A DNA stretch of 51,203 nucleotides from Candidatus Hatepunaea meridiana (lineage in GTDB: Bacteria; Electryoneota; AABM5-125-24; Hatepunaeales; Hatepunaeaceae): assembly GCA_030765125.1 (NCBI GenBank), contig JAVCDD010000355.1, forward strand, positions 1-51,203, in the 5' to 3' direction. Position 1 is the stretch's first letter. Each line of letters begins with the position of its first letter. Position numbers: made by a program. Of this stretch, positions 3,001 to 9,000 are shown in pieces.

Positions 3001-6000
3001 AAATGCCGACTTTGAGCTGCAAGCTGTTCGCTTTCAGATCAGCAACGGTAACGATGTAGATGAAACATGCCATGTATTTGTCTATACCGAGGATCAAAAC
3101 AACCATAACCTCGAGGATCTCATTTGGGAGGGCGAAACGGATGATCTTCCCAGCAACGAATGGATTACTCTTGAACTCGATGAAGATGACTTCCATACAT
3201 TCGATCAGGGTGAGAATTTCAGCATCATATATGGTCCGGCGCCCTCTGGTGATCCCAATAATAATGGTCAGGGCTGGTGGAACAGTATTGACTCTGCAAC
3301 TGATGTTCATCGCAGCTATGTTGCACAAGCACCACAAAACAATCCGCCATCTAATCACGCGAACGATTGGCATAATTTCGACTCAGATCTTCTTCTTCGT
3401 GCCAATGGTGAATTCCAGGATGATTTCATTGACGCTGGTATTATAGGTGTTTTCAACAATAACGAAAAGTGGGTTATGTGCCCAGGTGATGAACAGAGCA
3501 TTACCGCCAGATTAAGTTTCGACGGCACCGCTCCGAACTTCATTGTTGTTTCCTTCGACATATATGACAGCGAAGGGAATAGCGTTTGGGATGAACCTTG
3601 CGAAATAGTCGTTGAGGATCCCTTCGAGGACGATGATGAAATCGAGGTGGAATGCGAAGAAGTCTGGACTGCTGGGGATGAAGGTCATTATATGGTCGAG
3701 GTGTTGGCAGCGACAGAAGAAGACGCTAACGACGATAATGATATGATGTTCCTCGAACAGCTCGTCTATGATTTTGAAGCTGAAGAACATGGTTACCTGG
3801 GATTTTGCGATGAAGATGCTGACGGACAATTCAGTGGTACTGAAGATGAAGGCTGGATGGTCGGATTTCAGCATCCTGGCTGCGAAACCTCTTTATGGGT
3901 TGAAAAATTCCGCTACTTCTTCGAAAATGGTGGCGACCAGGCGTTAGAAGTACGCTTAGGTATCGGAGTATTTGATCCCGGTCAACGTACTTATGAATGG
4001 CGTGGATTCTTTACTGGAGAAATCGCAGCAGAGACAAGTGACTGGGTCGAGATCGAGCTTGAGGATGATGAAAAAGAGCAGACCAGCTTTGCAGATGGAC
4101 AGGAAGTTCATATTGCTTATTTCTACTCACCAGATCTTTCACTGAAAGCTGACGGCACTCCACCCATTTCCGGCGTCAATGCTGATATGCCTTCCACGAT
4201 GTTTACAGCAAGAGATAACGGACAAGAACCTTGGGAAGGTACTTATTTTGCCGAAGGCGGCGACTGGATGGGTCAAGTCATACTTGGCACTTCTGACGTG
4301 CTGCCTGAGGGAGCGTGGTTAAGAATTGAACCGGATACACTTGATTTCGGTCATAATCTTGCAACTGACGAGGATCACATCATTGAAGCCACTTTTACCG
4401 CTTATGGTAATGTACCTGTTGTTGTTGCAGGCTTTAGATTCTCAGGCGCAGCCGGTGATTATGTTACTTTAGATCCAAACGAAGAGTTTACAATTGAACC
4501 TGAAGAGGAACGAACCGTTACGGTGACATTCCGCACCGATGAGCAAGTTGACCTGGACTCACGTGTTATGATTAACAATGACTCTGATAATAAGCACAAC
4601 TATATTTGGACTATCTTAGCTTCAACGTATCCTGATGCAGTGGACGAAGCAAACATCGGAACGCCTGTCGATTACGCACTTTCACAGAACTTCCCGAATC
4701 CATTCAACCCGACGACCACTATTGAATATTCACTCAAAGCGGCAGGTGACGTTAAACTCAACGTCATTGATATGAGTGGTCGTGTGGTCAATGAAGTAGT
4801 AAACGGACGTCAGGATGCAGGTTATCACAATGTAGAGATTGATGCTTCAAATCTTCCTGCAGGTATTTATCTTTATCGTTTAACTGCCGGTGACTTCACC
4901 AGCACAAAGAAGATGCTTCTTCTGAAGTAATTTTCTTTTACCGCAGAGAACGCAGAGGATACAGAGGAAAACTATAACGTCGGCATCGTTTGATGATGCC
5001 GACGTTATTTTTATTCAGTAGGTCAGACACTCTTGTCTGACTCGCTGATTGTCGGACAGGAGTGACCAACCTACTGGATTGTCGGTCAGGAGTGTTCGAT
5101 CTACTGAAATTGTAAAGACTGGTCTGGATAATTTAATTCCGACTGGTCTTTCCTCTTTTTGTGGCTTATAAAACCGCATTTTGTATCGTAAAACAACGAT
5201 TTTTATCTTATATTACTATTGATAGTGCAGGTTCTCTGCCAGCGGGCGGTCTCACTTTTTACACATAAATCAAGAATGTCTGTCATACTGTGGAACATTT
5301 GCATCTTGATGGTATTGTCATACGCACGGAGGCGTATGCTACTGAAAAATAAAACCGGATTATCTAATAAATGAAAACCAATCAATCCATTCACGATTTT
5401 AATCCACGCGCAGCCGGTTTTCGCTGCGGGTTGGAAATTCACCAGCAACTTTATACTGAAAAAAAACTGTTTTGCCGATGTCCGGCAGGATTATATTCTA
5501 ACGATTATGATGCCCAGGTTCTAAGACACATGCGACCGACACTCTCCGAACTCGGTGAGTATGACGGAACCGCCTTGATGGAGTTCAAGACTAAAAAGGA
5601 AATCATCTATCGCCTTAATAAAAAATCCGTCTGTACTTATGAAATGGATGATACGCCACCGTTCCCCATCAACCAGAAGGCAGTGGATATTGCTATCGAA
5701 ATAGCTCTGCTACTCAATTGTGCAATTGTCGGTGAACTCCATGTTTCTCGTAAACAATACCTTGATGGCTCGATTCCTGCTGGTTTTCAACGCACGGCTA
5801 TAGTCGGAGTAAATGGATGGATACCTTACAAGGATCGAAAGATCAACATCATCCAGCTTGCCATAGAAGAGGATGCCTGTCGCGAGGTATCGGATGTAGG
5901 TCATCTCCGCGTTTACGCCACCGATAGATTAGCAATGCCCTTAATAGAAGTTGTAACTGCTCCGGATATGCTGGATCCGCAAGAGTCTTATGAGGTTGGT

Positions 6001-9000
6001 GTGCAATTGGGCAGATTGTTGCGTGCTACCAGTAAAGTACGACGCGGCATCGGCAGCGTCAGGCAGGATGTGAACGTTTCAGTAACAGGGGGCACGCGAG
6101 TTGAAATAAAGGGCGTCCCGCGATTACCACTCATTCCTGATTTAGTGCACTGGGAGGCTTGCCGTCAATATTCTCTTCTTGGAATGCGAGAGGAAATGAA
6201 AGAAAGGGGAATTAAGCAGGACAATCTTGAATCCGAGAGGTTCGATATTACAGGTCAACTTAGTCATCCCGCAATCGCCAGACTGTCGGATGATTCATTC
6301 AAGGTGTCCGCAATACTCTTAAAAGGATTAAGCGGCTTATTAGTTCACAAGATAGGTTTTGATAGGACATTTGCTGACGATGTTGCCGGGCGTGTCAGGG
6401 TTATCGCCTGCCTTCAGCATAGACCAGTTATGCTGCATAGTGACGATACTTCAGTGTCTGGTTTTTCTCAACGTGATTTGGAATTGTTATCTTCAATCAC
6501 AGGCAGAGGAAAGGATGATTTGGTTGTAGTTGTTTGGGGACCTATGATTGACGTGGAAACAGCGCTGAATGAGATCGAAATCCGCTTCAAGGAAGCAGCG
6601 GACGGTATACCAAACGAAACACGACAGGTGTTATCAACCGGAGAGACAGATTTTGAACGCATCCTTCCTGGTCCGAACCGGATGTACCCCGATACCGATT
6701 CTCCGCCTATTGTAATTTCAAGCGACCGAGTAGCAGCTATCAGGAAAAAACTGCCTGAATTGCCTTGGGATAGAGAAAAACGTTACAAGGAAATGGGAAT
6801 CCCGCATCATCTATCATGGATGCTGGCGATCTCACCACGCGCGATTCTCTTTGACAAATTGACATCAAATAATGGTGTCGCACCAAAGCTGACAGCAGTT
6901 GTTCTAATTGAACTGATTAAACATTTCAATAGGCTGGGAGGAAATCCGGATTCTATAAGCGACTCTGATTTGGAAGCGCTCTTTTTATTATATCAAAAAG
7001 GAGCTTTCAGCAGGGAAGGATTCAGGCTTTTGATTGAAGGACGTGCTCATGAAAAAGATGCTGACTGGATGAGGATAGCGGATAAAATTGGTATTAGAAA
7101 AGTTGACAATAAAGAGATTAAGGATGCTATTGAACGGATGGTTGTATCATTAAATGATAATGGTACCGTTGATGATGATCTTAAAAATAAAGTGGCGATG
7201 GGGCTGGTTATGAAGGATTTCAGAGGGTGTGTGCCGGGGGTAGATCTGGCACAGATGGTTAGTGAGTTTTTCAGTGGGTCAGACACTCCTGTCTGACTCG
7301 TTGGATGTTGGACAAGAGTGTCCAACCTACTGTATTGTTGGACAAGAGTGTCCAACCTACTGTATTGTCGGACAGGAGTGTACAACCTACTGTATTGTCG
7401 GACAGGAGTGTACAACCTACTGTATTGTCGGACAGGAGTGTACAACCTACTGTATTGTCGGACAGGAGTGTCCAACCTACTGTATTGTTGGACAAGAGTG
7501 TCCAACCTACTGGAAATCTGGGGACAGTATACCTATTTTATAAATATCTGATGTTTTCAAGGACATAAGATAAAACAGGTATACTGTCCCCAGGTTTTCT
7601 AACCTGCTTTAATAACTTGAGGATTATAATGAAACGGAACATGATCCTTTCTTATCTCTTTTTCTTCATCATTACAGTCAGTACAGTAGCAACCGCTTTT
7701 TCCGATCCGAGCCACAATGAGGATGAGTGGAAAAAACAGCAAGTTAGACTGGTAAAAGGACTTGAATCTAAAGGAATAACTGATAAAGCAGTCCTTCAAG
7801 CTATGACAGATGTACCGCGTCACGCTTTTGTTCCGAAGTGGTGGCGGTCGGATTCCTATCAGGATCGTCCATTGCCAATCGGTCACGAGCAAACCATCTC
7901 ACAACCTTACATCGTGGCTTATATGTGCGAGGCGTTGAAGCTTACCGGTAAGGAGAAAGTGCTTGAAATTGGTACTGGCTCCGGATATCACGCTGCAGTG
8001 TTGAGCCTTTTATCAAAGATGGTGTACACTATCGAAATCGTTCATGAACTCGGTGAATCAGCGGCAAAACTATTAGACAACCTTGAATATGAGAACATAG
8101 AAGTAAAGGTCGGAGATGGTTATCAGGGATGGGCAAAACATGCCCCTTTCGATGCAATTATTCTAACAGCAGCGCCTCCGAAAATCCCGCAACCGCTATT
8201 GGATCAATTGAAAATTGGTGGACGCTTGATAGCTCCGGTCGGCGTCAATTGGCAGGAACTTGTGCTTGTAGAGAGAGTAGAAGAGGGTTATAAGAAAACC
8301 GAACTGCTGCCGGTGCGGTTTGTTCCTATGACAGGTGAAGCGCAACAGCGAAGATGATTACCTTGAGAAATGCGTCATCTTACTCTGGATCGCTCAAGCT
8401 TGCTTAAGCAGTTTATATCATATGTTTGTTCCAGACCAAGCTCAAGCAAGCTTGAGCACTCCGGAGTAGGATGACGCTATTTTTCAAGGGAAAGAAAACA
8501 AAAAAAACCGCACTGATGCATAATCTCACAGCATATCTAAAGAAACTATATCCAAAACGTCGCACTTTAAGGAACAGCGCTGATACGGCGCTTTATAAGA
8601 GCATTAGAAATGTAGCCCTTGCCAGCCTAATTCTCTCAGCAATTCTCGTCGGTGGCACGTTGGGTTTCGTTCTAATTGAAGATTGGTCGATCTTAGATTC
8701 GCTCTGGATGACTGTAATAACTATGAGTACTGTAGGGTTTGGTGATGTTGTGCCACCGGATTCTATAGGACGCATCCTGACAATAGCTATAATAATTTCC
8801 ACCATCCTAGTCGGAGGTTATGCGGTTGGGAATATCGGCGCATTTTTCTTGGGGGGAGAGGTTATTAACATACTTCGAGGTCGAAAATTGGAACGGGATT
8901 TAGATCGTTGCAAAGATCATGTCATACTCGTTGGGTACGGCAGAGTCGGTCGGGAAGCAGCATCGGAATTAACAACCGACGAGATAGTTGTTATTGAACG

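What a model noticed while it worked through the whole genome (the two positions that open the first line are those of the whole stretch)
5371..7296. Archaeal GatDE amidotransferase in a bacterium
The genome encodes full-length GatE (g01419) and GatD (g01084, C105:13401-14786), the Glu-tRNA(Gln) amidotransferase regarded as an archaeal signature, has no GatCAB, and also has a GlnRS; both tRNA-Gln have the bacterial U1-A72 pair. GatE is kept across the phylum whichever other route is present, while GlnRS and GatA largely exclude each other, so bacterial GatDE either reads a bacterial-type tRNA-Gln or has a further role.
Evidence so far: Both over NCBIfam equivalog cut-offs; best Swiss-Prot hits archaeal at 50% and 36%; catalytic motifs present; no GatA/B/C rows. 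Aligns over the full length to Pyrococcus GatE including the insertion domain. GatE in 26 of 33 genomes searched, controls ring only in the four archaea; GlnRS 18 of 33, GatA 14 of 33, both only in one genome. Both genes lie among bacterial housekeeping genes on 24 and 51 kb contigs.
(Added by a program. Inside this text positions count along the whole contig: contig position 1 is position 1 of the stretch shown here. "Call 12" and the like, gene names such as g00115 and contig names such as C1 are that model's own, and its searches are not shown. The text may have been shortened before it was handed on; [...] marks where a part breaks off. The agent that wrote the report below was given it as the finding of a first reader that could run no searches.)

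Follow-up and report, generated by a model that had tools for sequence, protein, structure and literature searches.

The report
Bacterial GatDE replaces asparagine synthetase
This bacterium carries intact genes for GatDE, an enzyme that reviews call archaea-only and specific for glutamine-tRNA, and across its phylum these genes trade places with the asparagine-making gene asnA, so the enzyme has likely been repurposed to make asparagine.

Summary
The genes are real. GatE (5371-7296) and GatD (another contig) pass NCBIfam cut-offs and keep their catalytic residues. The genome has GlnRS and AsnRS but no GatCAB, AsnA or AsnB, and both tRNA-Gln have U1-A72. GatE belongs to a large bacterial-type clade (SH-aLRT 100) whose nearest named relative is a Heimdallarchaeota GatE.

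What tracks GatDE is AsnA: 45 genomes have GatDE only, 24 AsnA only, 4 both, 6 neither. AsnA goes the opposite way in about 8 of 10 independent pairs (median p 0.039); GlnRS and GatB show no link. In three families asnA sits in the gatE(D) slot, and three genomes have a gatE-asnA-gatD run. Bacterial GatE has lost the archaeal Gln240 (0 of 78 against 81 of 84) and the insertion-domain motif, and its tRNA-elbow tail is relaxed.

I put asparagine synthesis at about 65%: free asparagine 40%, via Asp-tRNA(Asn) 25%. No activity data exist. This scan found bacterial GatDE before on other DNA (78 notes; two report the asnA swap). Ten paper searches found no report.

The parts
5371..7296 (+). gatE, 641 aa, intact; bacterial-type clade. 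Its partner gatD lies outside the window (C105:13401-14786 = L001:8902-10287).
5413..6180 (+). Catalytic cradle domain (aa 15-270) with His24, Glu167 and Glu193, which align with the Mg-binding His15, Glu157 and Glu184 of M. thermautotrophicus GatE
   Evidence: alignment; roles from PMC2330236 passages; kept in 76, 77 and 77 of 78 bacterial-type sequences
6109..6126 (+). KGVPRL loop: Pro250 replaces the Gln that aligns with Mth Gln240 (role next to the tRNA 1-72 pair is recalled)
   Evidence: Gln in 81 of 84 archaeal-type and 0 of 78 bacterial-type sequences
6193..6600 (+). AspRS-like insertion domain (aa 275-410), present but with the archaeal H-x-D-E motif lost and new invariant residues (C347, P352, D394, E401)
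   Evidence: H[STC]DE in 74 of 84 archaeal-type, H[ST]DE in 2 of 78 bacterial-type
6721..7275 (+). Helical and tail (YqeY-like) tRNA-binding region, full length but relaxed; GxxAxGx motif degraded
   Evidence: Pfam GatB_Yqey 29.7 against cut-off 27
27745..29553 (+). glnS, intact glutaminyl-tRNA synthetase on the same contig (the direct route to Gln-tRNA)
   Evidence: TIGR00440 756 against cut-off 425.8

Best explanation
The genome encodes an intact GatD and GatE pair that has likely been repurposed as a glutamine-dependent asparagine synthetase, predicted to supply free asparagine to AsnRS in place of AsnA. Inferred steps: GatD, a type I asparaginase fold, releases ammonia from glutamine; the ammonia passes through the tunnel to GatE; GatE phosphorylates the side-chain carboxyl of aspartate with ATP and amidates it; asparagine is released and loaded on tRNA-Asn by AsnRS. 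Whether the aspartate is free or rides on a tRNA carrier such as tRNA-Asp is open. Shown: the genes, their catalytic residues, the clade-wide loss of the archaeal specificity features, and the exchange with asnA. Not shown: any activity, the substrate, or complex formation. Asparagine synthesis by either route (this one plus the first rival) is about 65%.
For: (1) Near-exclusion with AsnA in 79 genomes: 45 GatD/E only, 24 AsnA only, 4 both, 6 neither (Fisher 7e-11, kin not independent). Among the 40 GlnRS genomes it is exact: 29 against 11, none both, none neither.
(2) On an AspRS tree, 10 independent pairs differ in GatDE; AsnA goes the other way in 8.3 and the same way in 1.1 (median p 0.039, range 0.02-0.18). 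GlnRS and GatB show no link (median p 1).
(3) Same chromosomal slot in three families: G042 asnA has the two upstream genes of G041 gatE; G022 asnA lies directly before the MenA-like gene that follows gatE in G021 (G016 with one gene between); G075 asnA lies between the neighbours that flank gatE-gatD in G073 and G074. gatE-asnA-gatD is contiguous in G054, G057 and G071, and asnA is next to gatE in G143, outside the phylum search set.
(4) This genome has AsnRS and GlnA but no AsnA, AsnB or GatCAB hit.
(5) For free asparagine: AsnRS is kept in 47 of 49 GatDE genomes. GatCAB does not remove the need, since 36 of 41 GatB genomes still hold AsnA or GatDE although all 62 tRNA-Asn genes read have the U1-A72 pair that GatCAB accepts (PMC2811023 passages). 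The AspRS markers of non-discriminating enzymes (recalled; seen in 4wj3 and 4o2d) are His in 0 of 45 GatDE-only genomes and Gly in 7 of 28 GatDE-only, GatB-less genomes.
(6) At matched cradle identity (0.55-0.65) the tail is 0.19 identical among bacterial-type against 0.32 among archaeal-type pairs.
Against: There are no biochemical data, and I know of no GatB or GatE acting on a free amino acid (recalled). The tRNA-binding region keeps its length (median 200 aa after the RMYP motif, as in archaea), Arg521 (aligned to Mth Arg503) in 64 of 78, and the tail MG..M..RG..G motif at about 63-85%. AsnB-like genes occur in 55 of 79 genomes with no exclusion (p 0.32); I read them as mostly polysaccharide amidotransferases from their 585-730 aa frames, but did not test this. 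AsnA co-occurs with GatE in 9 of 71 genomes reached through the other loci, and no GatE-negative control was run for those lineages. Six genomes have neither gene, three of them 95-98% complete (G058, G064, G065; all with GatB and an AsnB-like gene). This genome's own AspRS has the Gly marker. No asparagine-rich leader lies before gatE (2 of 105, background level). The independent-pairs p is marginal.
Confidence: 0.4

Rival explanations
1. GatDE makes asparagine on the tRNA: a relaxed AspRS forms Asp-tRNA(Asn), and GatDE, having lost its glutamine-tRNA specificity features, amidates it to Asn-tRNA(Asn), as GatCAB does in Bdellovibrio.
For: It explains the AsnA exclusion equally well and also the kept tRNA-binding region. 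The features linked in print to rejecting Asp-tRNA(Asn) or AspRS, the tail GxxAxGx motif (PMC2811023 passages) and the insertion domain (PMC2943598 passages), are the ones changed. This genome's AspRS has the Gly marker. Precedent for AsnRS plus an indirect route: PMC4206432 passages.
Against: GatCAB should then substitute, yet 36 of 41 GatB genomes keep AsnA or GatDE. AspRS shows no change across the within-genus swaps; the nine AsnA-only genomes with no amidotransferase have the Gly marker in 7 of 9, more often than GatDE-only, GatB-less genomes (7 of 28). AsnRS is almost never lost (47 of 49).
Confidence: 0.25
2. GatDE keeps its archaeal reaction and converts Glu-tRNA(Gln) with the bacterial U1-A72 pair to Gln-tRNA(Gln), as a backup or proofreading route beside GlnRS or GatCAB.
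For: All kinase and glutaminase residues are kept and the NCBIfam equivalog cut-offs are passed. Loss of Gln240 could simply adapt the enzyme to U1-A72, which is present in this genome and in 4 of 4 tRNA-Gln read from relatives. Four phylum genomes and 7 of 50 others show GatE or GatD with neither GlnRS nor GatB.
Against: It does not predict the exclusion and same-slot exchange with asnA. GatDE is unlinked to GlnRS or GatB status (p 0.066 and 0.063; independent pairs p 1). The genomes with neither route are drafts. This genome has a single GluRS1-type enzyme with Arg at the C36-reading site (role recalled), while GlnRS-less relatives carry a second GluRS (5 of 5), so Glu-tRNA(Gln) is probably not made here.
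Confidence: 0.2
3. GatDE does something else in amide-nitrogen metabolism, for example a regulated asparaginase or glutaminase or amidation of another carrier, and asnA is linked only as a donor supplier or through a shared promoter.
For: GatD is the only asparaginase-family hit in the genome and is 65-77% identical across phyla against about 50% for GatE. In G016 asnA sits beside a plain asparaginase-like gene. An unchecked scan note reports a glutamine synthetase alternating with asnA in gatDE operons.
Against: A donor-supply link predicts co-occurrence, but 69 of 79 genomes have exactly one of the two. GatD and GatE are gained and lost together even when unlinked (45 both, 2 and 2 single, 30 neither), and the GatE kinase site is intact.
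Confidence: 0.13
4. The genes are archaeal contamination in a metagenome bin.
For: The family is described as archaea-only (PMC2811023, PMC2330236 and PMC9499178 passages).
Against: The contig also holds a bacterial-type GlnRS; 49 of 79 relatives have the genes, and a shared TrkA-type neighbour family recurs in 12 gatE loci. The 80 best hits are bacterial records and codon use is native.
Confidence: 0.01

Closest known systems
Archaeal GatDE, Glu-tRNA(Gln) amidotransferase (P. abyssi 1ZQ1; M. thermautotrophicus 2D6F)
   Same: Both subunits, fold, insertion domain, kinase His/Glu/Glu, GatD Thr-Thr-Asp-Lys, full-length helical and tail domains.
   Different: Bacterial host with U1-A72 tRNA-Gln and GlnRS; Gln240 equivalent, insertion-domain HxDE motif and tail GxxAxGx motif lost; dispensable (30 of 79 lack it); alternates with asnA.
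Asgard archaeal GatE (Heimdallarchaeota TET29438.1, Thorarchaeota MFW9855810.1, Odinarchaeota MFW9990517.1)
   Same: Nearest named archaeal relatives; share the RK[QN]YLDGS.P and RMYPDT states.
   Different: All 8 Asgard-like sequences keep the Gln, and 7 of 8 keep the insertion-domain Glu, so they look like ordinary Glu-tRNA(Gln) amidotransferases.
Bacterial GatCAB used for tRNA-dependent asparagine synthesis (Bdellovibrio, PMC4206432)
   Same: Homologous kinase subunit; a possible shared role in cells with AsnRS and GlnRS and no asparagine synthetase.
   Different: The glutaminase here is asparaginase-like GatD, not the amidase GatA; GatB models are below cut-off; GatCAB does not relieve the need for AsnA or GatDE in this phylum.
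Asparagine synthetases AsnA (ammonia-dependent) and AsnB (glutamine-dependent)
   Same: Proposed product and, for AsnB, the nitrogen donor; asnA occupies the same chromosomal slot.
   Different: No homology; the proposed activation is an acyl-phosphate (ADP-forming), not an adenylate (textbook chemistry, recalled).

Membership tests
GatDE (GatE and GatD protein families) | GatE passes the curated equivalog cut-offs and is not GatB | tested here: met
   NF003107 524.6/456; TIGR00134 467/319.55; best GatB model 159/338
GatDE (GatE and GatD protein families) | GatD with N-terminal domain and asparaginase Thr-Thr-Asp-Lys site | tested here: met
   NF003217 526/310; GTGGTIAS, HGTD and RKMHS in 66 of 66 bacterial GatD
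GatDE (GatE and GatD protein families) | Mg-binding His/Glu/Glu of the GatE kinase site | tested here: met
   H24, E167, E193
GatDE (GatE and GatD protein families) | AspRS-like insertion domain | tested here: met
   Present by alignment and fold, though its archaeal HxDE motif is lost
Archaeal Glu-tRNA(Gln) amidotransferase system | tRNA-Gln with the A1-U72 pair | tested here: not met
   U1-A72 in both genes here and in 4 of 4 read from relatives; requirement from PMC2330236 passages
Archaeal Glu-tRNA(Gln) amidotransferase system | Gln240-type loop residue (role recalled) and tail GxxAxGx motif | tested here: not met
   Gln in 0 of 78 against 81 of 84; the tail reads NKVAMGL here (motif)
Archaeal Glu-tRNA(Gln) amidotransferase system | No GlnRS, so the enzyme is the essential route | tested here: not met
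   GlnRS intact in the window; 45 of 49 GatDE genomes have GlnRS or GatB
Archaeal Glu-tRNA(Gln) amidotransferase system | Non-discriminating GluRS partner | tested here: inconclusive
   Single bacterial GluRS1-type enzyme with the Arg marker; specificity cannot be read with certainty from sequence
Archaeal Glu-tRNA(Gln) amidotransferase system | Amidates Glu-tRNA(Gln) and not Asp-tRNA(Asn) | not testable with these tools
   Needs an assay
GatCAB | GatB plus amidase GatA | tested here: not met
   No GatB and no amidase hit; GatC was not searched
AsnA / AsnB asparagine synthetases | AsnA or Asn_synthase domain | tested here: not met
   GatE carries only GatB_N and GatB_Yqey; the genome has no AsnA and only weak 54-67-residue PF00733 matches

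The most novel reading that the evidence does not exclude
A fourth kind of asparagine synthetase. An Asgard-derived GatDE entered bacteria early, dropped its glutamine-tRNA reading elements, and now makes free asparagine through aspartyl-phosphate, either from free aspartate or using Asp-tRNA(Asp) as a recyclable carrier. It would be the main route to asparagine in Electryoneota, Ignavibacteria, Calditrichota, Aminicenantes and others, swapping with asnA at the same locus.
Probability: 0.35. Interest if true: 0.9.

Novelty: new variant of a known kind. Interest (0 to 1): 0.75.

Why it matters
GatDE is a textbook archaeal signature and is described as strictly a glutamine-tRNA enzyme, a view repeated in a 2022 review (PMC9499178 passages). 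A large bacterial clade breaks the first claim. A switch to asparagine would break the second and add a new route to one of the 20 amino acids, filling an apparent asparagine gap in many uncultured anaerobes. It would also show which few elements (the Gln240 loop, the insertion domain, the tail) set amidotransferase specificity, and it points to an early gene transfer from Asgard archaea into bacteria. It can be tested directly and cheaply by complementing an E. coli asnA asnB mutant.

Tried and rejected
Missing glutamine synthetase as the reason for GatDE: rejected, GlnA is present.

Exclusion with AsnB-like genes: none (32 both of 79, p 0.32).

A different first base pair in tRNA-Asn by GatDE status: none, U1-A72 in 62 of 62 genes from 61 genomes.

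An AspRS column that separates GatDE from AsnA genomes: best difference 0.61, nothing clean.

T-box or riboswitch near gatE: no Rfam hit in 12 loci, including the Bacillota-labelled L014. Asn- or Gln-rich leader peptides: 2 and 2 of 105 gatE upstream regions, against Asn-rich leaders in 2 of 29 aspS controls.

Apparently broken gatE copies in G034 and G052 were not used as evidence of decay: G052 carries duplicate gatD and gatE, and both may be assembly errors.

No RNA holder was listed. Contigs of four public runs cover the stretch only in short pieces, none spanning it, so they were not used as support.

PMC2366055 (Sheppard and Soll 2008) is not held and the 2006 co-crystal paper was not seen, so the roles of Gln240 and Arg503 are recalled. 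Searches for the AspRS His/Gly markers found no relevant paper. The GatB-rooted FastTree root hangs on a long branch and is not relied on.
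Full report
Observation. The ORF at 5371-7296 encodes a 641-aa protein that passes both GatE equivalog models and no GatB model. It aligns over its full length to the two solved archaeal GatE proteins and folds like them (pLDDT 93; TM 0.83 to 1zq1_C by target length). GatD lies on contig C105 between pyrF and a lysyl-tRNA synthetase region (ORFs; pyrF is my reading of the sequence, not a database label) and passes its models. The genome (92% complete, 0.8% contamination) has no GatB or amidase hit, one GluRS and one GlnRS, the latter in this window, and one each of AspRS, AsnRS and LysRS. 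Both tRNA-Gln and the tRNA-Asn start with U1-A72. Codon use is native. The phylum is probably Electryoneota, inferred from the grouping of own-phylum GatE with the named record L025.

Breadth. gatD lies within the fetched stretch in 70 of 111 loci with a GatE hit, usually directly downstream; many of the rest end at contig edges or belong to this phylum, where the genes are often unlinked. NCBI's pipeline already labels such proteins GatE, so the annotation exists even though I found no paper on it.

Phylogeny. In a FastTree of 170 sequences the bacterial-type GatE form one clade of 78 (support 0.995). In an IQ-TREE PMSF tree of 50 of them the clade has SH-aLRT 100 and joins a Heimdallarchaeota GatE at 98; the bacterial-type and Asgard-like sequences together are set apart from 19 other archaeal-type sequences at 99. 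Names come from look-ups of 24 proteins, of which few carry a taxon, so 'archaeal-type' for the rest rests on similarity and motifs. One Thermoplasmata-labelled protein (UCE36696.1) is inside the bacterial-type clade, on its first branch. A transfer from Asgard archaea is the simplest reading, but the root was not tested.

What changed in the protein. The kinase residues are kept (roles from PMC2330236 passages), as is the GatD site in 66 of 66. The Gln aligned with Mth Gln240 is present in 81 of 84 archaeal-type and 0 of 78 bacterial-type sequences; its role at the first base pair is recalled. The insertion domain, which in archaea is predicted to dock GluRS and block AspRS (PMC2943598 passages), lost its HxDE motif (74 of 84 against 2 of 78). 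The tail motif implicated in rejecting Asp-tRNA(Asn) (PMC2811023 passages) is degraded, and the tail diverges faster at matched cradle identity (0.19 against 0.32). Its length and several residues are kept.

Not the route to Gln-tRNA. All 79 genomes of the phylum were searched. GatE is present in 47 (43 over cut-off, plus G015, G044 and G072 split or partial and G034 frameshifted), GatD in 47 (46 over cut-off plus partial G040; weaker plain asparaginase hits in G016, G022, G036 and G070 not counted), either in 49; GlnRS in 40, GatB in 41, AsnRS in 73. GatDE lacks both GlnRS and GatB in 4 of 49, all drafts. Of 50 of the 80 other loci tested, 41 have GlnRS, 15 GatB and 7 neither. Five of five GlnRS-less relatives tested have a second GluRS, and the three examined lack the Arg marker. 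Of 10 GlnRS genomes tested, 6 have one GluRS and 4 (one family) have two. This genome has only the GluRS1 type.

The AsnA exchange. I had found no AsnA or AsnB in this genome when earlier scan notes pointed to an asnA swap; I then tested it. AsnA occurs in 28 of 79: 45 GatDE only, 24 AsnA only, 4 both, 6 neither. With an AspRS tree of all 79 (13 rows under half filled), 10 independent pairs differ in GatDE and AsnA runs opposite in 8.3, the same in 1.1 (median p 0.039); GlnRS and GatB do not follow. Three of the four 'both' genomes have gatE-asnA-gatD in one run, and asnA sits in the gatE(D) slot in three families (G042 against G041, G022 and G016 against G021, G075 against G073 and G074), with a looser fourth case (G019 against G018) and an adjacent asnA in G143. 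Among 71 GatE-bearing genomes reached through the other loci (9 likely own-phylum loci left out), 9 have AsnA; no GatE-negative control was run there. AsnB-like genes show no exclusion.

Mechanism. Genes that replace one another at one locus most likely give the same product, so GatDE probably makes asparagine (about 65%). Two versions fit. In the Asp-tRNA(Asn) version GatCAB should substitute, since bacterial GatCAB accepts both substrates in vitro (PMC2811023 passages) and all 62 tRNA-Asn genes read have U1-A72; yet 36 of 41 GatB genomes keep AsnA or GatDE. AspRS markers do not favour a relaxed enzyme in GatDE genomes (markers recalled and imperfect), and AsnRS is kept in 47 of 49. I therefore lean to release of free asparagine (40%) over the tRNA-Asn route (25%). 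Against this stand the retained tRNA-binding region and the lack of precedent. A carrier role for Asp-tRNA(Asp) would reconcile these but is speculation. Retention of an asparagine synthetase beside GatCAB is common in bacteria generally (Table 2 of PMC4206432), which weakens the GatCAB argument. The unchanged Glu-tRNA(Gln) role gets 20% and other amide metabolism 13%.

Literature. Seen as passages: PMC2330236, PMC2811023, PMC2943598, PMC4206432 including Table 2, PMC9499178 and PMC3927822 (no occurrence of GatDE or GatE in the main text of this 366-genome survey). PMC2330236, PMC2811023 and PMC9499178 call GatDE archaeal. Ten searches, judged from listings, showed no report of bacterial GatDE or of a link to asnA. 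The library lacks most subscription papers, including the 2006 co-crystal paper, Sheppard and Soll 2008 and, from recall, a 2024 review on amide aminoacyl-tRNA synthesis. Supplementary genome tables of PMC4206432 and PMC3927822 were not read and may bear on this.

Verdict. A real member of the GatD and GatE protein families that fails the tested defining features of the archaeal Glu-tRNA(Gln) system and behaves genomically like an asparagine synthetase: a new variant of a known kind, interest 0.75. The scan has noted bacterial GatDE 78 times and the asnA swap twice on other DNA; the counts above are my own tests.

Noticed in passing
window 7306-7512, 5013-5100, 9583-9795, 21111-21269: A dispersed palindromic repeat with a GTAG head (REP-like; label recalled) forms a 30-bp array of 6.9 copies right after the gatE stop and supplies the last codons of gatE. 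A 24-base pattern with up to 2 substitutions finds 232 copies in 77 contigs and 0 in the reversed control; one array lies in frame inside the ORF at 21046.
   Followed up: partly
P0086 (UCE36696.1): A Thermoplasmata-labelled protein on a 5.16 Mb contig is a bacterial-type GatE without the Gln and sits on the first branch of the clade; whether that genome has a second, canonical GatE is unknown.
   Followed up: partly
L307/L310 (G019), L305/L309 (G022), L319/L324 (G021), L322/L325 (G023): Four genomes of one family carry a second full-length GluRS lacking the Arg marker although they have GlnRS; G019 and G022 show no amidotransferase at all, so its role is unexplained.
   Followed up: no
L124-L135, L236: The AsnA of this phylum is a distinct subfamily of about 380 aa with a conserved N-terminal extension, barely over the TIGR00669 cut-off (294.5 against 292.8) and 41-46% identical to the AsnA of five other genomes.
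   Followed up: no
L248:5764-8509 (G016): asnA is followed directly by a 501-aa type I asparaginase-like gene with a long C-terminal extension: synthesis and breakdown genes side by side.
   Followed up: no
L151, L155, L157, L158 (G017, G021, G023, G024): In one family the tRNA-Asn gene lies 4.7-6.4 kb from gatD; probably one inherited arrangement, not examined.
   Followed up: no
G046-G051 (family f6): All six AspRS carry His at the marker site, including G048, G049 and G050, which show no amidotransferase, so the marker does not track an indirect route here.
   Followed up: no
G000:C281:1669-1742 and C29:4870-4943: Two near-identical tRNA-like genes, one called Ala(cgc) and one with an unassigned anticodon loop, differ from the ordinary tRNA-Ala in the window; possibly remnants at integration sites.
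   Followed up: no
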